Positions 997 through 24,283 are shown, counted from the first letter of the stretch. The stretch: DNA of 36,201 nucleotides from Candidatus Aenigmatarchaeota archaeon (GCA_030672375.1 DAOVGP010000010.1:1-36201); one strand, 5' to 3'. The notes: generated from the letters alone by a model not told the origin. Program-made: numbers and translations.

Positions 997-2100
997 TTAA
1001 ATATTTTTCTGATTCTTTAAACTAATTTTTGATTCTAACAGATTAAAAATAATAAAACTGGCTATGGCAAACACTGACCCGATATACATAGTAGTTCTAT
1101 AATCTCCTAAAGATACAATTATAATAGATAAAAAAGGGCCGATTATTGAAGATAAACTTTTTGTTGAATCCAACATTGCGGATACTGTTGCCTTCTCAAC
1201 GTTTTTTTCAGTTAGATACCTTAATGAACCCACGTATAGAAATGACCATGAAACTCCTAAAAACATTTGTACTGGTAAGATGTGCCAATAGATAGTTGCC
1301 CTTGTGTACAATAAGAAAGTAACGGCTGAAAGTATCAACCCATACCTTATCAAAAAGTGAGGTTTCAACCTGTCTGTGAGAGTGTACATTATTAAAAATT
1401 GTAATAAAGAGTTGATAGAACCTATTACGCCTATCCAGAAAAAATTGGCTCCTAAAGATTGAAGATACAAAGGCCAAAAAGTCCATATCATCGATGCTCC
1501 TAGGTGACGAATAAACATGGCAGAATATACTGAGAGGTTTTTCTTGATTATTTTAGTCGGGAACAGTGGTATGTGTAAAGGCTTGTTTTTAGTCGAATTT
1601 AACCCATAAGACATTAAAAAGGAAATGAAAAACGATAAAGAACTGAAGATGAAAACACCCTTTATACTAAAGTACATTGCAATGATACCAGCCAAAGTTG
1701 CACCTAAAAACCACCCCAACGAACCAAAGGCTGAGAATTTTCCTAAGTTTTTTTTGGATTCATACACATAGGCGACTAAAGCGGCTGGAAAAATTCCTAT
1801 ACAAAATCCAGAAATTGCACGAATCATCAATAGTGAGACTTCATTCGTAATAAAGATCTGAAGGAAGAATGCTATCGATGAAGCTATCAAGCCTATTCTC
1901 AAGAATAATATTCTGGTTCCACGCTTGTCAGATGCACGACCGAATAAATATGAGGAAAAGAATAGAGCGAATGCATAGGAGGCTACTACGAGTCCTATAT
2001 AGGTGTCTGATAGTCCTAGTTCCTTAGCAAGAAGAGGTATGAACGTCCAAGAAGCATTGGCCGCAGCAAAACTCAATAGTTGGATTAAACTAGATCTCAT
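997..2100 (-). CDS. MFS-type membrane transporter
   Basis: 367 aa, hydrophobic throughout with about 10-11 predicted helices. An MFS motif-A-like string, GRASDKRGTR, follows the second helix. Confidence 0.75.
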   Translation of the reverse strand: MRSSLIQLLSFAAANASWTFIPLLAKELGLSDTYIGLVVASYAFALFFSSYLFGRASDKRGTRILFLRIGLIASSIAFFLQIFITNEVSLLMIRAISGFCIGIFPAALVAYVYESKKNLGKFSAFGSLGWFLGATLAGIIAMYFSIKGVFIFSSLSFFISFLMSYGLNSTKNKPLHIPLFPTKIIKKNLSVYSAMFIRHLGASMIWTFWPLYLQSLGANFFWIGVIGSINSLLQFLIMYTLTDRLKPHFLIRYGLILSAVTFLLYTRATIYWHILPVQMFLGVSWSFLYVGSLRYLTEKNVEKATVSAMLDSTKSLSSIIGPFLSIIIVSLGDYRTTMYIGSVFAIASFIIFNLLESKISLKNQKNI

Positions 2101-2102
2101 CC

Positions 2103-3356
2103 CTAAGTCCCTTCTTTCCAGTCAGTCAGATATTTCTCCTGTTCTTCTGTCAAACTATCTATCTTTATTTCCATAGATTCCAGTTTTAATCTTGCAACCC
2201 TATCATCGATCTCCTTAGGGACATCATAAACCTTTGGTTCAAGTTTCTTATGATTATTAGCCAAAAATTCGCTACACAACGCCTGATCAGCGAACGACAT
2301 ATCCATGACATCTGAAGGATGACCTTCAGCAGCGACTAAATTGATGATTCTACCCTTACCGAGGAGGTAAATCTTTTTTCCATTCTTCAATGTATATTCT
2401 TCAACATTTTTTCTTATCTCTCTCTTAGATTTTGATAAACTTTCTAAATCAGGAATAGATATCTCAACGTTGAAATGACCTGTATTTGCAATGATAGCAC
2501 CATCTTTCATCAATTCCATGTGTTCTTTACGGATAACATCCTTATCTCCTGTAATAGTGAGGAATACGTCTCCAATTTTAGCTGCTTCTTTCAACGGCAT
2601 AACTCTATAGCCATCCATAGCAGCTTGTAACGCTTTGATAGGATCAACTTCAGTCACAACAACATCTGAGTCCATCCCTCTCGCCCTTCTAGCAACACCA
2701 CCACCACAATAACCATACCCACATACAACGAAAGTCTTTCCTGCTAACATTATGTTGGTTGCTCTCAGTATTCCGTCTATCGTACTCTGCCCTGTCCCAT
2801 AAACATTATCAAACATTCTTTTTGTCGGGGTGTCATTAATTGCTATAACAGGAACTTTCAATGTACCGTCTTTTGCCATAGCCCTTAGTCTTATAACGCC
2901 TGTAGTAGTCTCTTCTTGACTTCCATAAAGGGTTTTTAACAAGTCCTTTCTTTTGGTATGGATTGCTGTGACAAGATCTCCACCATCATCCAAAGTTATG
3001 TTTGGATTGAAATCAAGAACTTTATTTATACACCAATAATACTCTTCACTGGTCTGCCCAGTCCAAGCGAAAACATGAATCCCTTCTTCAACCAATGCAG
3101 CCGCAACATCATCTTGAGTCGACAGAGGATTGGCTGCAGCTAGAACAACAGTAGCCCCTCCAGCTTTGAGGGTTTTCATCAATACCGCAGTCTCTTTTGT
3201 TACGTGTAAGGCTGCGCAGATGGTTAAACCTTTAAATGGCTGTTTTTTCCTAAATTCTTCCATCACCTTCATCAACACGGGCATACGACTTTCTGCCCAA
3301 TCTATGCTAAGTTTTCCTTGTTTTGCGAGTGATATATCCTTAACCTTGTGCTCCAT
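2103..3356 (-). CDS. ahcY: S-adenosyl-L-homocysteine hydrolase
   Basis: 417 aa. The N-terminus (KVKDISLAKQGKLSIDWAESRMPVLM), HVTKETAVL, the GYGYCGGGVA NAD-binding loop and a C-terminal LTEEQEKYL-type tail are all characteristic of AhcY. Confidence 0.92.
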   Translation of the reverse strand: MEHKVKDISLAKQGKLSIDWAESRMPVLMKVMEEFRKKQPFKGLTICAALHVTKETAVLMKTLKAGGATVVLAAANPLSTQDDVAAALVEEGIHVFAWTGQTSEEYYWCINKVLDFNPNITLDDGGDLVTAIHTKRKDLLKTLYGSQEETTTGVIRLRAMAKDGTLKVPVIAINDTPTKRMFDNVYGTGQSTIDGILRATNIMLAGKTFVVCGYGYCGGGVARRARGMDSDVVVTEVDPIKALQAAMDGYRVMPLKEAAKIGDVFLTITGDKDVIRKEHMELMKDGAIIANTGHFNVEISIPDLESLSKSKREIRKNVEEYTLKNGKKIYLLGKGRIINLVAAEGHPSDVMDMSFADQALCSEFLANNHKKLEPKVYDVPKEIDDRVARLKLESMEIKIDSLTEEQEKYLTDWKEGT

Positions 3357-16587: not shown

Positions 16588-17721
16588 TTACTCCTCGCCC
16601 AATCTTGAGATTAACTCGAACATACCTGTACCAATAGGAACCTGTTGATTTACCATAACATTATCGAATATGGCGTCGAATTTATCCTCTTCTTGTCTGA
16701 CAGACGCCCGCACTAGATGTTTTATAGTCTCTTCAAACCCTGCTCTAGTGAGGATAGATGATTTCATACCAGCCACACCATACCTTCCGATAGCTTTAAT
16801 TTCTCCAGTAAACGTCATCATATCCGCTACCAATAAAACATGTCTAACATCTATATCCAACCCTTGTTGTTGCATAGTAATCTTAGTCTCTCTTATTATC
16901 GTATTCCTACCGGCTTCTATACCTAAGACGCTAGCCATTTCATGTATGTTGTTTGTGTAACTCCTCTTTATATCTATCTCATTAAATGTCATGATCTTAG
17001 CAAAATTAGAACCCATAGTTGTAATAACCCAATCATTTTCTTCCTTAATTATTATACTGTTCTTTATTTTGGGGATTCCGGATACACAAAAATCCAACAT
17101 TTTTTTCTTGAGTTTTTGTAGGTCCTTAATCGATAAATCTTTCACTTCTGACTCAACGTTTAAAATATCACCTTTGATAAGTATCTTGTAATTCTTGAAC
17201 TTTTTCCTAAGATTTGAAATGACTTCGTTTTTCCTTGATTTTTTTAGTTTTTTCAACTTAACTTTTATTTTCTTGTTAGTTAAATCAAGAGAGACTGATG
17301 TTATCATGTTTCTCAGTGTTTTTTCTGTGATTTTTTCAGCAATCTTTTCAGCATGTTTCTTAGTATTGTAATTCTTCTTCAAATACAAAGACATCATAGA
17401 TGCTTTTGGCTCTTTCTTTGCATCAAATATCTCGATTAATCTAGGTAATCCTAAAGTCACCCTAATTCCGACTGAACCAGCGAAATGGAAAGTACGCATG
17501 GTCATTTGTGTAGCAGGTTCGGATATAGATTGAGCCGAAATTATACCAATAGCCTCTCCAGGTTCAAAAGAACTATTCATATACTCTCTCTTAACAGCAT
17601 CGATTAGTTTCTTTTCTTTGACAGAATTAAATTTTTTCTCTCTACAAATCTTCTTTATATCATCTAATATTCTACCCGGTAATAATTCATCCGAATATTC
17701 TGTCTGCGATTTTTTCGACAT
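16588..17721 (-). CDS. rpoA2: DNA-directed RNA polymerase subunit A''
   Basis: About 377 aa from the ATG at 17721 (the track extends to a GTG at 17730). [28 protein letters not shown] is the trigger-loop region. The start overlaps the 3' end of the preceding ORF by about 35 nt. Confidence 0.9.
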
Positions 17722-20700
17722 TAATTCCACCTTTTTGTATTTTTGAGGGGTCCAATCCGTCCTCTCCTGGGACGAACTGTACTATTTTTTTAGCACTATC
17801 CCTGACAGTACCGTCGTACTCAACTTTCAAGTCCTGTAGTGCTCCGATCAATCTTCTCTCCAAATAACCACTATGTCTCGTTTTCAGAGATTTATCCATC
17901 AAACCTTCTCTACTGTTCATAGCATCAAAGAAGAACTCGAATGGATTTAAACCTTGCTTATAACCATTCTTCACGAAACCTTTTGATTCCAAACTTATAT
18001 CACCATGCTTGAAATGTGGAAAAGTTCTCCCAAAGTAACCAATCTTTATTCTTTGTCCTTTTATCGTCTCTTGACCTATACAAGCTGCAGTTTGAACAAA
18101 ATTTATCATGCTACCTCTCGCACCACTCCTTGCCATTATAACAGTATTGTTCATAGGAATCTGTTTCTCTACAACATTTGCAATTCTATTCAAACAATCA
18201 GCAAGTTTCCTTTGAATGAGTACTTCTAAACTGTCCCTGGGTGTTCTCCCAATTAAAACTTTTATTTTTCCTCTCTTAAAATCTGTGATTATTTTGTTTA
18301 CTTCTTGTCTTACATCGTTTATTATTTTATCTATCTTCTTGAGTGTATTCTCACTCAAATCATGATCAGAAAGTGAAATCGAAAAGCCTTGTTCTGTCAA
18401 GAATTTTAGAGCAAGCCTTGTGATGCTGAATAGAAACTCTTTCATAAATTTATGCCCGTATATCTTATCCATTTCATCCAGTATTTTTCCACTGAATGCA
18501 GCTACACTTTTCTTATCTATAGTTCCAGTTATGAGCTGACCTTTTTTTATGACAACATACGAATCATAAGGACACTTCTCCTTCATACATTTCGAACAGC
18601 CTATACAACATTCTGCTTTGTAACTCATGTTGAAATCTTTAGGTAGAAACAGACTGAACACTTCTTTACCAGTAAAAGTTTTCTTTTCTGGAATGTCTAT
18701 GTTTGGGTTACATGATTTTACCAATTGTACAACTTCCTTTCTTGTAAATTCTCGATGACCATGAGTCAACAAATACAAAGATGTTATATGATCTTTACTG
18801 CATCCAATTATAGGACCACTAAACCTTGGACTCCTAATATGATTGGGTACATCCATTAAAAGTTTTATCTCTGCCTGTGCTTCTTCTGCTTGTGGAACAT
18901 GCAAGTTCATTTCATCCCCATCGAAGTCAGCGTTATAGGGTGGACAAACAACAAGATTTAGCCTGAATGTTTTGTAAGGCATTACCCTAACTTTATGCCC
19001 CATCATACTCATTCTATGTAGAGAAGGTTGTCTGTTGAACAGTGCCCAATCACCATCTTCTAACTGTTTTTCAACGACGAATCCTGGTTCAATTTCTTTC
19101 GAAATTTCTTCTTTGTTTATTTCACTGATTCTTTTTTTCATACCGTCTGATCTTATTATGTAATTCACAGTTGGCCATTCTGGGTATCGGTTAATCAATG
19201 TTTTTATATATTCAATATTTTTTTCATTGACAACGATTGAAGTAGTTAACTCCTTTGCTATTTCTATAGGGACACCCACTTCATTAACATCGAGTAAAGG
19301 ATCAGGACTTATGACAGTCCTAGCTGAGTAATTGACCCTCTTTCCGATTAAATTATGCCTGAATCTTCCTTCTTTTGTCTTTAATCTCTGTGTTAAAGTT
19401 TTTAAAATTCTTCCAGATCTATGTCTGGCTGGTGGTACCCCAGAAAGTTCATTATTAATATAGGTCGCAACATGATACTGAACAAGTTCCCACAGATCTT
19501 GAATGATAAAATCAGGTGCACCTAAATCTATATTTTCTGCCAATCTCTTGTTTATTCTCACAATATCAACTAGTTTATGTGTTAAGTCATCCTCTGACCT
19601 TTCACCCGTTTCAAGTGTTATGGAAGGTCTGACTGTTACAGGTGGTATCGGTAAAAGAGTTATAATGAATAACTCTGGTCTAACTTTTCTTAAACCAAGA
19701 TAAATCAAATCTGAGTCTGGTATTTTTTCTAATTTTTCTCTAACTTGGATTGAATTTAAAATAGTACTGCCTTCAATGAAACTGGTCGGCTTCAAAAATT
19801 TTACCTTCTTTTGTGGTGTTCCACAATGAGGACATTTGCTTTTAACTAAGGCCTTTAATCTCTTGAATGATTTCTTTTTAGAAATGAATTTTTCCATACC
19901 ACCTTGATCTAAAAGAACTCTGCCACAATTTTGACAAGTTGTCTTTAATATGTTATAAATCAACTTTGCATAAAGAACATGAATAACGGGTCTTACAAGT
20001 TCTAAATATCCAAAATGTCCGGGACACTCACCAACAGTCCCAGCACACGCCCTGCATCTTAAACCAGGATCGATGACACCCAATCTAGGATCCATCAGAC
20101 CACCTTCTATTGGATAACCTTCTTGGTCGTAAAGGTCTGTCTTGTTTATTTTTGCAGCAGACATTTTTTTTATCGTCTCAGAACCCAAGACTCCAAATAC
20201 TATCTTTTCTAAAGTGTTATCCTTGCTGACTACTATTTTTGGATATATCAACATACTTTTCAATTCATCCATCAGAAGTTTGAACGCATAAGACATTTCA
20301 ACATCATCAACTTTAGATTCACCACACACAGGACAATATTTTTTATTCTTTATTCTATCATGAATTGCAATCAATCCACAATCTTTGCATATAGGTATGC
20401 TTGTCTTATCAGAACCAAATCTTTCTTTGAGGACAAGGGTGGCACCCTGTGCAATCAAACAATCTTTTTCCATCTCCCCTAACCTTAACCCACCCCTTTT
20501 AGACTTTCCTTCTGTAGGTTGCTTGGTTAAAAGTGTAACTGGACCTCTTGATCTGGCATGAATCTTATTTGAAACCAGATGATCTAATTTTTGATAAAAA
20601 ACGTTTCCCACAAATATCTGACCAGTTAATTTTTTGCCAGTTTGACCGTCATAAAATGTTTCCTTTCCATCGCCCCTAAAACCATGCTCTTCAAGAGTTC

Positions 20701-22012
20701 TCCTAAGTCCTGATTCGGAAAGGGAATGAAACGCGGGACTACTCAATCTTTCACCTTTCATAGCAGAAACCTTTCCAGCTAATATCTCCAATAATTGACC
20801 TATGGTCATCCTAGAAGGGATACCATGAGGGTTGAATATTATATCTGGAACTACCCCGTCTTCCGTGAATGGCATGTTTTCTTGAGGAACTATTAGGCCT
20901 ACAACACCTTTTTGTCCATGTCTACTAGCAAATTTATCACCAATTTCTGGTTTTTTCAAATCTCTTAGGATTACCTTTACCAGTTTACTGCCATTTTTAC
21001 TTTCTGTTATGAAGACTCTATCGACTATTCCCTCTTCACCGTGTCTTAATTTGACTGAAGTTTCTCTAATATTCTCCAAGCCTGTTATGAATTGATCGAG
21101 AGAACCGAGGAATCTCAAGGGTGATACTTTTCCGATGAGTACTTCATCAGATTTAACCTTTGTCCCAGGGTTGATGATCCCGTCTTCTGGTAGATGTTTA
21201 TAAGCATCTTCTCCAGGATATCCTCTTATACCTGGTTCTGGAACCCCGATGATATCTTCTTGACCTCCCATGTATCTCTTTTTTTCAGCTTCGTATGACC
21301 TGAACAAATAAGACCAGAATAAACCTCTTTCTATGGACGATTTATTCATTACTATTGCATCATCCATATTGTACCCCTCAAAGGACATTATCGCGATGAC
21401 TATGTTTTGACCACCAGAATGGTTCTCATCTTTTAGAACGTCGTTAATATGTGTCTTGACGAGCGATACTTGTGGGTCAATTAATATATTAGATTTTGTA
21501 TCAGTTCTCATTGGAAAATTCAAAGAGTACATACCAATAGCTTGACCTACCATCTTTGCTCCAAAGTTTACTCTATCTCCACGATCAAATTCTGGGAAAG
21601 GAACCAATGATGTAGATAGTCCAAATATTGTTACAGGATCCAATTCCAGATGTGTATGCTCTTTTGTCAAATCCCCTGGTTCTAATGCTACATAAGTATT
21701 TTCTTCTTCTTCTGCATCTAGGTATTCAATAACACCTTCTTTTATTAAACCAGACCAACTCATCTTCTTCTTTTTTATCTTTTCGATATGTTCTCTAGTG
21801 AGTTTTGGTTTACCATTCTCTACGACTATCAAAGGACGCCTCGCTCTCCCAGAATCAGTAAGTATTTTTATCGTATCCAAATGTTCCAAATGGGCAACAT
21901 TCACTTGATCAGAAATCTGTCCCTTTCTCCTTTTCTCTCTGATCAAATTTACGATTTTCTCTGGCTTTTCAGTCGTTCCAACGAATTTTCCACCTAAAAA
22001 TACATCAATCAT
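17687..22012 (-). CDS. Fused DNA-directed RNA polymerase subunits B' (residues about 1-598) and A' (residues about 600-1441) in one ORF
   Basis: The B' part has [27 protein letters not shown] and a Zn ribbon (CKDCG...CPVCG). After ...[20 protein letters not shown] the frame runs straight into the A' N-terminus: [44 protein letters not shown], then [15 protein letters not shown]. There is no stop codon or plausible internal start at the junction (about 20183-20242). Confidence 0.85.
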
Positions 22013-23757: not shown

Positions 23758-23852
23758 CGCCCTGAAGGGGATTTGAACCCCTGTCCCGGGAGTGACAGTC
23801 CCGGAATCTACAACATTTAACGTTTTGATAGACCGAGCTACACCATCAGGGC
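23758..23852 (-). tRNA. tRNA-Asp (anticodon GUC) with a roughly 20-nt non-canonical intron in the D-arm region (about 23806-23825)
   Basis: The reverse complement has acceptor stem GCCCTGA/TCAGGGC, discriminator G73, anticodon arm CGGGA-CTGTCAC-TCCCG and T-arm AGGGG-TTCAAAT-CCCCT. The gene is 95 nt against about 75 expected. The extra 20 nt lie between the D-loop and the anticodon stem, inside a helix-bulge-helix-bulge-helix fold. CCA is not encoded. Confidence 0.75.
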
Positions 23853-23889: not shown

Positions 23890-23938
23890 TTGGGGATGGG
23901 AAGTAAATTTTCTGATCAATAATGGGTCACCATCAAAT

Positions 23939-24079
23939 GGGTTGACAACGTCCTGGGTTTCCCGCCCGAGGGCAGTACAGTCCAGATCACTGGAGAGTTT
24001 AACTTTCACGCAGTCTTTATAGACTGTTCCGTGTTCGGGATGGGAACGGGTATTTCCCCTCCGTTTTGGTCGTCAACCC
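23939..24079 (-). rRNA. rrf: 5S rRNA gene, 141 nt, interrupted by a 23-nt insertion
   Basis: The reverse complement starts GGGTTGACGACC and ends GTTGTCAACCC (helix I). It contains the universal 5S string ACCCGTTCCCATCCCGAACACGGA...AGTTAAACTCTCC. Ends are uncertain by about 2 nt. Confidence 0.88.
24005..24027 (-). other. Putative BHB-bounded mini-intron (or hairpin insertion) within the 5S rRNA gene
   Basis: The minus strand reads CACG-GAA-CAGTCT-ATAA-AGACTG-CGTG-AAA. This is a 4-bp helix (CACG/CGTG) flanked by two 3-nt bulges on opposite strands, plus a 6-bp inner hairpin. Removing ACAGTCTATAAAGACTGCGTGAA restores the consensus CACGGAAGTTAAAC. Confidence 0.55.
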
Positions 24080-24100: not shown

Positions 24101-24108
24101 TATTTAAA
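24101..24108 (-). promoter_or_regulatory. Candidate TATA box (TTTAAATA) at about -22 to -29 relative to the 5S rRNA 5' end
   Basis: The sequence and spacing are TATA-like, and the element lies in the 89-nt spacer between tRNA-Tyr and 5S. Confidence 0.35.
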
Positions 24109-24168: not shown

Positions 24169-24283
24169 TCCCCGGAGCCGGATTTGAACCAGCAACCTAT
24201 CGGTATCTTTCGAGCGATTGCTAACGATCAAGTACCATAGTACTCGACTACAGCCGATCGCTCTACCATTGAGCTATCCGGGG
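24169..24283 (-). tRNA. tRNA-Tyr (anticodon GUA) with a 43-nt canonical (37/38) intron at 24205-24247
   Basis: The reverse complement folds as CCCCGGA-TA-GCTC-AATGGTA-GAGC-G-ATCGG-CTGTAG[43 nt]A-CCGAT-AGGTT-GCTGG-TTCAAAT-CCGGC-TCCGGGG-A. The C1:G72 pair is the archaeal tRNA-Tyr hallmark. A BHB fold is present with bulges AGT and ATA around the helix CTGT/AAAG (one G.A mismatch) and an inner helix CGAG/CTCG. Confidence 0.85.

What the first reader, a model, noticed from the sequence alone, without database searches (positions are those of the whole stretch)
24004..24033. Bulge-helix-bulge mini-intron candidate inside the 5S rRNA gene
The 5S gene is 141 nt, about 20 nt longer than usual. The excess is one block that interrupts the highly conserved string CCCGAACACGGAAGTTAA on the 3' side of helix III/loop B. 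On the minus strand the block with its flanks reads CACG GAA CAGTCT ATAA AGACTG CGTG AAA GTTAAAC. CACG and CGTG form a perfect 4-bp helix. It is flanked by 3-nt bulges (GAA and AAA) on opposite strands, and a 6-bp inner hairpin sits beyond it. That is the geometry recognised by the archaeal splicing endonuclease. Cutting after the second nucleotide of each bulge removes exactly 23 nt and regenerates the consensus ...CCCGAACACGGAAGTTAAACTCTCC..., giving a 118-nt 5S. The same cut rule reproduces the canonical 37/38 junction of the neighbouring tRNA-Tyr. BHB introns are established in archaeal tRNAs and in 16S/23S rRNA of some lineages, but I do not know of one described in 5S rRNA.
Basis: partly seen in the sequence, partly recalled or inferred. 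Interest (0 to 1): 0.85.

Follow-up and report, generated by a model that had tools for sequence, protein, structure and literature searches.

The report
Likely spliced mini-intron in 5S rRNA
The 5S ribosomal RNA gene of a group of tiny uncultured archaea (Aenigmatarchaeota) carries a 21-32-base insert with the hallmarks of an archaeal protein-spliced intron; I found no earlier report of an intron in 5S rRNA, and splicing itself is still unproven.

Summary
Rfam places a 5S rRNA gene at 23940-24077 (-) with one 22-23-nt insert. The insert sits at the conserved AA bulge of helix III (E. coli positions 52/53).

The window belongs to an Aenigmatarchaeota (DPANN) lineage. I recovered 14 distinct insert-bearing 5S genes (12 insert variants, 21-32 nt) from syntenic loci and metagenomes.
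- All 12 variants keep the same design: exon CACG paired with intron CGUG, a 3-nt bulge GAA, an inner hairpin directly abutting, then AAA.
- The hairpin changes in length and sequence, with compensatory changes. The motif-defining bases never change.
- Cutting after the second bulge base gives exactly the junction CACGGA|AGUUAA found in insert-less orthologs.
- Chance gives this design in about 3 of 10,000 trials. Bacterial inserts at the same site fail the test.
- The neighbouring tRNA-Asp has a 20-nt non-canonical intron of the same relaxed design, and introns come and go quickly in this clade.

Caveats:
- The 3' splice site lacks a convincing outer helix, so the motif is relaxed, not strict.
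- The same site hosts retained expansion segments in some bacteria.
- No RNA data were available.

My estimate is about 0.68 that it is spliced. I found no published 5S rRNA intron.

The parts
23938..24079 (-). 5S rRNA gene, precursor about 142 nt. The Rfam match is 23940-24077.
   Evidence: RF00001 at 46 bits with a single insert. Exons keep the canonical 5S helices in 16 orthologs: 97% of cells paired, 7 pairs with compensatory change.
24028..24079 (-). 5' exon, ending ...CGAACACGGA (E. coli position 52).
   Evidence: Alignment to insert-less orthologs L020 and L015. Cut rule tested.
24005..24027 (-). Predicted 23-nt intron, ACAGUCUAUAAAGACUGCGUGAA.
   Evidence: Absent from orthologs L020, L015, L053 and L057. 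All 12 variants obey the same cut rule.
23938..24004 (-). 3' exon, starting AGUUAAAC (E. coli position 53).
24030..24033 (-). Central helix H, exon strand CACG. In mature 5S this is part of the 3' strand of helix III.
   Evidence: Pairs with CGUG in the MFE folds. 14 of 14 sequences paired.
24027..24029 (-). 5' bulge GAA. The predicted cut is between 24028 and 24027.
   Evidence: 3-nt bulge in 11 of 12 MFE folds of the variants. Invariant.
24011..24026 (-). Inner helix h' with its loop: CAGUCU-AUAA-AGACUG.
   Evidence: 100% paired across 14 sequences. Two pairs change on both sides (G-C/A-U and C-G/U-A) and one goes to a G.U wobble. Length varies from 14 to 25 nt.
24007..24010 (-). Central helix H, intron strand CGUG.
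   Evidence: Invariant in all 14 sequences, although every interior hairpin column varies. It was not imposed by the search patterns.
24004..24006 (-). 3' bulge or loop AAA. The predicted cut is between 24005 and 24004.
   Evidence: Sequence, rule check. No convincing outer helix follows (my reading of the sequence).
24101..24108 (-). TTTAAATA, a likely archaeal TATA box about 25 nt upstream of the 5S 5' end.
   Evidence: Read directly. Inference only.
24169..24283 (-). tRNA-Tyr(GUA) with a 43-nt intron at 37/38 (24205-24247). It shows the organism must splice BHB introns.
   Evidence: RF00005 at 58.9 bits with a 46-nt insert in the anticodon loop. ARAGORN intron call.
23758..23852 (-). tRNA-Asp(GUC) with a 20-nt non-canonical intron at 24/25 (23806-23825). 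H is CUAU/GUAG, bulges are CA|A and AU|U, h' is AAC/GUU, and the outer helix is weak.
   Evidence: My parse. Confirmed by ortholog L015, which reads ...ATCA|TCCGGGA without the insert. ARAGORN miscalls it.

Best explanation
The insert is a relaxed bulge-helix-bulge (HBh'/BHL-type) mini-intron in the single syntenic 5S rRNA gene of a sub-clade of Aenigmatarchaeota.

Proposed mechanism:
1. The gene is transcribed as a precursor of about 142 nt.
2. In the precursor, exon bases CACG (E. coli 47-50, later part of helix III) pair with the intron's CGUG to form the 4-bp central helix.
3. The intron hairpin stacks below that helix. G51-A52-A is left as a 3-nt bulge on one strand and A-A-A53 is unpaired on the other.
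4. The archaeal splicing endonuclease EndA cuts after the second base of each bulge.
5. The RNA ligase RtcB joins A52 to A53, and probably circularises the 23-nt intron.
6. The released CACGG strand re-pairs with CCGU to form helix III with its conserved AA bulge.

Shown here: the motif, its conservation and covariation, its precise presence or absence among orthologs, and that excision restores the ortholog sequence.
Inferred: cleavage, ligation and the enzymes involved.
For: 1. There is a single insert at one site of an otherwise good 5S gene. The exons evolve under 5S structural constraint.
2. There are 14 distinct insert-bearing genes with 12 insert variants of 21-32 nt. All satisfy the rule: 4 H pairs, a 3-nt bulge, h' of at least 5 bp and exact excision. 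Berkelbacteria inserts at the same site fail it.
3. 12 intron positions are invariant: A, CA, one inner-helix U, UG, CGUG and AA. All but that U define the motif. All other intron columns vary, and 34 of 118 exon columns vary.
4. The inner helix shows compensatory changes and no broken pair.
5. A chance motif is expected in about 1.4e-4 to 3.2e-4 of trials.
6. CGUG is complementary to core sequence and competes with helix III. The ensemble free energy is -58.5 kcal/mol for the BHB conformer and -52.4 for the helix III conformer. This is expected for an intron. Genuine expansion segments are described as lacking complementarity to the core (PMC7812874).
7. Syntenic orthologs of outgroups (L015, L053, L057) lack the insert exactly. 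So does one lineage nested in the clade (L020).
8. Adjacent tRNA-Asp genes carry 17-23-nt introns of the same relaxed design. These switch between 24/25, 37/38 or both among the same lineages, so BHB introns turn over quickly here.
9. DPANN endonucleases with an extra loop are associated with more disrupted tRNA genes (PMC5829648). One DPANN enzyme (ARMAN-2) cleaves a relaxed motif in vitro (PMC3239211).
10. An unrelated archaeal contig (L030) has what looks like a permuted 5S gene. Its leader and trailer form a perfect BHB one base away from this site.
Against: - There is no RNA evidence of a spliced junction or a free intron.
- The 3' splice site has no proper outer helix, so a strict alpha4 or alpha'2 endonuclease would probably not cut it.
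- The endonuclease type of this clade was not determined, and no EndA gene lies in the window.
- The central helix never varies, so it has no covariation support. Its exon strand was fixed by my metagenome search pattern.
- The same site (52-53) carries retained expansion segments in Thermoanaerobacterium (PMC7812874). It also carries a plain hairpin in CPR Berkelbacteria, so ribosomes can tolerate extra RNA there.
- No intron of any kind has been reported in a 5S rRNA.
Confidence: 0.68

Rival explanations
1. Retained expansion segment. The hairpin stays in mature 5S rRNA and projects from the AA bulge of helix III at the top of the central protuberance, as in Thermoanaerobacterium. The resemblance to a BHB is incidental, or serves some folding or assembly role.
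For: - Positions 52-53 are described as one of the least obstructed insertion sites. They host a 46-nt retained insertion in Th. thermosaccharolyticum (PMC7812874).
- CPR Berkelbacteria carry a 21-nt hairpin at exactly this site.
- Hairpin length variation with covariation also fits an expansion segment.
- The outer helix needed for a strict BHB is missing.
Against: - It does not explain why CGUG, the exact 3-nt bulge and the flanking A's are invariant while the rest of the insert varies freely.
- It does not explain why the design arises by chance in only about 3e-4 of trials.
- A retained CGUG would compete with helix III.
- The bacterial inserts at this site have no such complementarity.
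Confidence: 0.22
2. Processing without rejoining. The motif is cut by EndA or another RNase but the halves are not ligated. This would give a fragmented 5S rRNA held together by helices I and II, analogous to bacterial intervening sequences in 23S rRNA.
For: - The motif evidence is the same as for the intron.
- The cut lies in a bulge between helices, so the two pieces could stay paired.
- The L030 arrangement shows a 5S gene can be organised with its ends at this position.
Against: [quoted passage not shown] RtcB as the general ligase is my background knowledge. No fragmented archaeal 5S is known to me. Nothing in the sequence distinguishes this reading from splicing.
Confidence: 0.06
3. Degenerating gene or assembly artefact. 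The insert marks a 5S pseudogene or a mis-assembly, and the functional 5S gene lies elsewhere.
For: Only the syntenic locus of each lineage was examined. The rest of each genome was not, so a second 5S copy cannot be excluded.
Against: - The same design occurs in 14 independently assembled sequence types from JGI, ENA, Logan and NCBI data.
- The exons show compensatory evolution.
- The locus is the ortholog of the normal 5S gene of the outgroups.
Confidence: 0.03

Closest known systems
Archaeal BHB introns at non-canonical positions of tRNA genes (relaxed HBh'/hBH = BHL motifs), cut by EndA and joined by RtcB
   Same: 4-bp central helix formed between exon and intron. 3-nt bulge with the cut after its second base. 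Variable inner hairpin. Small size (13-25 nt is typical; here 21-32 nt). Patchy gain and loss among close relatives. The tRNA-Asp next to this 5S gene is such a case. Definitions are in PMC4090602 and PMC3239211.
   Different: The host RNA is 5S rRNA, not tRNA. The exon strand of the central helix is the 3' strand of helix III. What lies beyond the 3' site is the rest of the 5S body, not a tRNA stem.
BHB introns in archaeal 16S and 23S rRNA genes (Thermoproteales, Desulfurococcales), and the BHB processing stems that flank 16S and 23S rRNA
   Same: The same enzyme system acts on ribosomal RNA. EndA and RtcB are already part of rRNA maturation (PMC7714728, PMC10515664).
   Different: Those introns are usually far longer, and some encode homing endonucleases (from my general knowledge). 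None has been described in 5S rRNA. 5S processing described so far uses tRNase Z and other endonucleases, not EndA.
5S rRNA expansion segments (Halococcus morrhuae at 104.1-105; Thermoanaerobacterium at 52-53) - Stepanov and Fox 2021, PMC7812874
   Same: The insertion point is the same as in Thermoanaerobacterium, the AA bulge of helix III at E. coli 52-53. The insert is hairpin-forming. The 5S genes are oversized and under-scored by standard models.
   Different: Those segments are retained in mature rRNA and lack complementarity to the core. This insert carries an invariant 4-mer complementary to the core, arranged as a splice motif. No DPANN or Aenigmatarchaeota case is in that survey.
Permuted non-coding RNA genes matured through a BHB: permuted tRNAs (PMC3239211); Thermoproteus SRP RNA (from memory)
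   Same: Relevant to the side observation in L030. There the 3' half precedes the 5' half, and the leader and trailer form a BHB.
   Different: The window's gene is collinear, not permuted.

Membership tests
Archaeal BHB (EndA-dependent) intron | 4-bp central helix between the two splice sites | tested here: met
   CACG/CGUG is perfect in 14 of 14 sequences. It is invariant, so there is no covariation for or against.
Archaeal BHB (EndA-dependent) intron | 5' splice site in a 3-nt bulge flanked by two helices (HBh') | tested here: met
   The bulge GAA lies between H and an inner helix of 5-10 bp. The inner helix has compensatory changes.
Archaeal BHB (EndA-dependent) intron | 3' splice site in a 3-nt bulge flanked by H and an outer helix h (the strict hBHBh' form) | tested here: not met
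   After CGUG-AAA only A.G, A-U and G.U can form with the bases 5' of CACG (sequence). The motif is therefore the relaxed HBh'/BHL form, not the strict 3-4-3 form. The relaxed form is a recognised member of the family for broad-specificity enzymes (PMC3239211).
Archaeal BHB (EndA-dependent) intron | Excision at the fixed bulge positions restores a functional RNA | tested here: met
   The product junction CACGGA|AGUUAA equals that of insert-less orthologs, which score 75-82 bits on RF00001.
Archaeal BHB (EndA-dependent) intron | Host encodes a splicing endonuclease able to cut relaxed motifs, plus a ligase | not tested
   No EndA or RtcB gene was found among the window ORFs of 100 aa or more that I scanned. 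Their presence is inferred from the tRNA-Tyr 37/38 intron and the relaxed tRNA-Asp 24/25 intron in the same locus, and from DPANN EndA literature (PMC5829648).
Archaeal BHB (EndA-dependent) intron | Spliced product and free or circular intron observed in RNA | not testable with these tools
   No transcript data are reachable from here.
5S rRNA expansion segment | Insert retained in mature, ribosome-bound 5S rRNA | not testable with these tools
   Needs RNA or ribosome data.
5S rRNA expansion segment | Insert folds independently and lacks complementarity to the conserved core | tested here: not met
   The invariant CGUG pairs with core CACG. The BHB conformer is predicted to be about 6 kcal/mol more stable than the helix III conformer. 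The criterion is from PMC7812874.
5S rRNA expansion segment | Located at a site the ribosome tolerates | tested here: met
   The site maps to E. coli 52-53 by my alignment of the sequences. PMC7812874 lists 52-53 among the least obstructed sites. Berkelbacteria carry a hairpin there.

The most novel reading that the evidence does not exclude
5S rRNA genes in archaea can be interrupted by BHB elements at the AA bulge of helix III. Two cases would support this: a spliced mini-intron in a clade of Aenigmatarchaeota, and independently a circularly permuted 5S gene with a perfect leader/trailer BHB in another archaeal genome (L030). In these organisms EndA and RtcB would be obligatory 5S rRNA maturation enzymes. 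To my knowledge this would be the first intron described in a 5S rRNA gene in any domain of life.
Probability: 0.6. Interest if true: 0.75.

Novelty: new member of a known kind. Interest (0 to 1): 0.62.

Why it matters
- 5S rRNA is, as far as I know, the one rRNA in which no intron has been reported. Surveys of oversized prokaryotic 5S genes found only expansion segments, and none in DPANN archaea (PMC7812874).
- A spliced 5S intron would add 5S rRNA to the substrates of the archaeal splicing endonuclease. It would show that BHB introns spread beyond tRNA even into a 120-nt RNA.
- It would give a compact natural substrate (about 140 nt with a 23-nt intron) for studying relaxed-motif recognition.
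- There is a practical consequence. These genes score near the Rfam threshold (46-52 bits against 75-82 for intron-less orthologs). They, and the intron-bearing tRNA-Asp next door, are therefore easily missed or mis-sized in annotation of DPANN genomes.

Tried and rejected
- ARAGORN output for the tRNA downstream of 5S ("tRNA-???" and "tRNA-Leu(CAA)" with a 13-nt intron) was rejected. Orthologs show it is tRNA-Asp(GUC) with an intron at 24/25.
- Alignment A2 used the wrong strand for six loci and was discarded. A3 replaces it.
- Several pattern hits were set aside:
  - L029, L034, L039 and L048 are bacterial 5S genes with an internal tandem duplication, not inserts.
  - L026 and L028 are chance matches.
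  - L036 has only a helix III-like stretch followed by AT-rich sequence and was left unresolved.
- An exact look-up of the window's RpoB'' protein found nothing, so the source contig was not identified.
- Looking for EndA among the window ORFs found none. I ran no further search on EndA, because clade-specific hits would not be among the listed best hits.
- The insert is not a repeated element in the window.
- The sigma-70 promoter and terminator scan is not informative for an archaeon.
- Literature phrase searches for a 5S intron or an archaeal permuted 5S gene returned nothing relevant. Circular 5S RNA species have been seen in Sulfolobus and Halobacterium, but not an intron (PMC3326292).

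Full report
**1. What is in the window**

The window has 35% G+C. It carries an archaeal core gene cluster: rpoH, rpoB'', a fused rpoB'-rpoA' ORF, rpoA'', a NusA-like KH protein, S12, S7, EF-2 and EF-1alpha. It also carries ATP-dependent DNA ligase, archaeal-type ThrRS and Elp3. The closest named RpoB'' homologs belong to Aenigmatarchaeota (DPANN), and the best hit in the database is 91% identical.

Upstream of rpoH, on the minus strand, lie three RNA genes:
- tRNA-Tyr(GUA) at 24283-24169, with a 43-nt intron at 37/38.
- A 5S rRNA gene at 24077-23940.
- A tRNA at 23852-23758.

**2.

Rfam RF00001 aligns the 5S gene end to end at 46 bits (gathering score 38). There is a single 22-nt insert between ...CCCAUCC-C-GAACACGG and AAGUUAA.

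Minimum-free-energy folds of the whole gene and of the local segment both form CACG/CGUG, the 3-nt bulge and the hairpin.

By alignment with the E. coli sequence, the site is the conserved AA bulge of helix III, positions 52/53.

**3. Relatives**

Using RpoB'' homologs I fetched syntenic loci with the gene order nitroreductase, DUF11 protein, tRNA-Tyr, 5S, tRNA, rpoH, rpoB''.

| Lineage (locus) | RpoB'' identity to window | 5S length | Rfam bits |
|---|---|---|---|
| window | - | 138 nt, insert | 46 |
| L002 | 88% | 136 nt, insert | 50 |
| L004 | 86% | 137 nt, insert | 52 |
| L009 | 83% | 146 nt, insert | 48 |
| L020 | 86% | 115 nt, normal | 81 |
| L015 | 79% | 114 nt, normal | 75 |
| L053 | 75% | 114 nt, normal | 75 |
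| L057 | 74% | 117 nt, normal | 82 |

The normal genes read CGAACACGG|AAGUUAAGC at the point where the others carry the insert.

Two collection scans used a pattern that fixed only 5S exon bases and left the insert free:
- The genome scan added one genome (L027). It is labelled Heimdallarchaeota but has the same locus.
- The metagenome scan added further contigs.

The total is 14 distinct insert-bearing 5S sequences with 12 different inserts of 21-32 nt.

In a neighbour-joining tree of RpoB'', the insert-bearing lineages form one clade. The insert-less L020 is nested inside it and the insert-less lineages L015/P0054 and P0077/P0108 lie outside. The simplest history is one gain and one precise loss. 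The tree has no support values.

**4. Anatomy across the 12 variants**

Every variant reads CACG-GAA-[hairpin]-CGUG-AAA.
- Eleven of 12 local MFE folds give the identical architecture. The twelfth (L009) has it as an alternative.
- A rule-based test asked for three things. The central helix had to be the 4 nt ending two bases before each cut. The inner helix had to start one base after the 5' cut and end directly before the 3' strand of the central helix. The product had to equal the insert-less sequence.
- All 12 variants pass, in one register only: 4 of 4 central pairs and an inner helix of 5-6 or more bp. The predicted cut is A52|A53.
- On alignment A3 the nine scored pairs are 100% paired. 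Two inner-helix pairs change on both sides (G-C to A-U in 5 sequences, C-G to U-A in 3) and one goes to G.U. The four central pairs never vary.
- Column by column, 12 intron positions are invariant: the first A, CA, one inner-helix U, UG, CGUG and AA. Every other intron column varies. 34 of 118 exon columns vary. The motif-defining intron bases are therefore at least as constrained as the average exon base.
- Shuffling the insert produced the full motif with exact excision in 28 of 200,000 trials. Keeping the hairpin and randomising the linkers produced it in 64 of 200,000.

**5. The gene is a working 5S gene**

Across the 16 orthologs the canonical helices I-V are 97% paired, with seven pairs changed on both sides. 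This is far above the slid controls. The spliced window sequence differs from the insert-less L020 gene at 17 of 118 aligned positions. A TTTAAATA box lies about 25 nt upstream of the 5' end (inference).

**6. Why an intron rather than an expansion segment**

The rival is serious.
- Stepanov and Fox (PMC7812874) list positions 52-53 among the least obstructed insertion sites. They report a 46-nt insertion there in Thermoanaerobacterium that is retained in mature 5S.
- My own scans found a 21-nt hairpin at exactly this site in CPR Berkelbacteria, which have no BHB machinery.

Four points favour the intron.
- Those authors note that genuine expansion segments lack complementarity to the core. 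The Berkelbacteria inserts fail the BHB rule, with only 2 of 4 central pairs and no abutting helix.
- Here an invariant 4-mer is complementary to the 3' strand of helix III. It is placed so that it creates a 3-nt bulge and abuts the hairpin. If retained, it would compete with helix III: ensemble free energy is -58.5 kcal/mol for the BHB conformer against -52.4 for the helix III conformer.
- The same cells must already process this design. In the window and in L002, L027, L043 and L046, the adjacent tRNA-Asp has a 17-23-nt intron at 24/25. Its features are H = CUAU/GUAG, bulges CA|A and AU|U, a 3-bp inner helix with a compensatory change, and a weak outer helix. L015 instead has an intron at 37/38, and L020 has both.
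- Intron turnover of this kind in the same lineages makes a gain in 5S plausible, and also a precise loss in L020.

**7. Limits**

- The 3' splice site is not a closed 3-nt bulge. Beyond AAA only A.G, A-U and G.U can form, so the motif is the relaxed HBh'/BHL type (definitions in PMC4090602 and PMC3239211).
- Strict alpha4 and alpha'2 enzymes need the 3-4-3 motif. (Alpha-beta)2 and epsilon2 enzymes cut relaxed motifs, and DPANN enzymes carrying the L3 loop are associated with more disrupted tRNA genes (PMC5829648). I did not determine which enzyme this clade has.
- The 3-bp UUC/GAA stem of loop C could stack on the central helix and stand in for the outer helix. That is speculation.
- The exon strand of the central helix was fixed by my metagenome pattern, so its invariance is partly an ascertainment effect. 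The intron strand was not fixed.
- No transcript data were reachable.

**8. Literature**

Full-text searches found no paper mentioning a 5S rRNA intron. The 5S expansion survey covers no DPANN lineage. It explicitly leaves open that some inserts might be excised. Circular 5S RNA species were seen in Sulfolobus and Halobacterium and were interpreted as processing or decay intermediates (PMC3326292).

**9. Side finding that bears on the question**

Contig L030 is labelled Promethearchaeota (isolate YT_039). Its layout is:

leader AAAGCG-CCGG-AA|G-UUAAAC... [3' half of a 5S] ...CUGUAGC-UUUG-GCUACGG... [5' half] ...GAAC-CCGG-AA|U-CGCUUU trailer.

- Leader and trailer give a 6-bp helix, a 4-bp CCGG/CCGG helix and two 3-nt bulges.
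- Cutting after the second bulge base and joining the ends gives CCCGGAA|GUUAAAC. That is the canonical junction, one base from the window's site.
- Rfam detects only the helix III/loop C hairpin there (23.7 bits), as expected for a permuted gene.
- The re-ordered 116-nt sequence folds into the three-armed 5S shape by MFE.
- If real, this is an independent case of BHB-dependent 5S maturation at the same place.

**10. Verdict**

I put about 0.68 on EndA-dependent splicing, 0.22 on a retained expansion segment, 0.06 on cleavage without ligation and 0.03 on a pseudogene or artefact. The mechanism is a known one (a relaxed BHB intron) in a host RNA where it has not been described.

Noticed in passing
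L030:5234-5373 (+), contig JAEOSU010000100.1, labelled Promethearchaeota archaeon YT_039: Apparent circularly permuted 5S rRNA gene. The 3' half and 5' half are joined by a UUUG loop closing helix I. Leader AAAGCG-CCGG-AAG and trailer CCGG-AAU-CGCUUU form a perfect BHB. Cutting and joining would recreate the canonical CCCGGAA|GUUAAAC junction (E. coli 53/54). The re-ordered 116 nt folds as a 5S. No archaeal permuted 5S was found in the literature search. The taxonomic label was not checked.
   Followed up: partly
window 23758-23852 (-): tRNA-Asp(GUC) with a 20-nt non-canonical intron at 24/25 (23806-23825). Rfam misses it at the gathering score in the window, and ARAGORN calls it '???' or Leu. 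Among relatives the intron sits at 24/25, at 37/38, or at both.
   Followed up: yes
window 17687-22012 (-): rpoB' and rpoA' form one 1441-aa ORF here and in L002 and L009 (1440-1441 aa). They are separate genes (598 + 842 aa, 1-2 nt apart) in L004, L020, L015, L053 and L057. This is either a recurrent or clade-specific fusion of two RNA polymerase subunits, or a lost stop codon.
   Followed up: no
L025:3613-3750 (+); also L032, L033, L035, L045, L047: CPR Berkelbacteria 5S rRNA genes (56.6 bits) carry a 21-nt hairpin insert (CUYCGCCUCUUCGGCGGAUAA) at the same AA-bulge site. It shows no BHB features and one compensatory-type U/C difference. I found no mention of this lineage in the published survey of 5S expansion segments.
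   Followed up: partly
L029, L034, L039, L048 (bacterial contigs from the pattern scans): 5S genes with an internal direct duplication of about 25-34 nt covering the helix III/loop C segment (for example ACCCGTTCCCATCCCGAACACGGAAG twice). These could be real duplications or assembly artefacts. Four independent contigs show it.
   Followed up: no
L027 (JAEOTG010000167.1, labelled Candidatus Heimdallarchaeota archaeon YT1_048): This contig has the same tRNA-Tyr / intron-bearing 5S / tRNA-Asp / rpoH locus as the Aenigmatarchaeota window, with near-identical sequences. The bin label is probably wrong, or the contig is a contaminant of that bin.
   Followed up: partly
L036:6975-7152 (-), contig VTLG01003331.1: A helix III/loop C-like stretch (CCCGTTCCCATTCCGAACACGG) is followed by 42 nt containing CTGCGTGA and then AAGTTAAAC. 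The flanks are AT-rich and show no recognisable remainder of a 5S gene. Its nature is unresolved.
   Followed up: no
L053-L056, about 1700-2520 (+): In the P0054 lineage a phage-integrase-family gene (in some contigs also a Bro-N protein) lies between the DUF11 gene and the 5S/tRNA cluster. The variable content among contigs suggests an integrated element next to the RNA genes.
   Followed up: no
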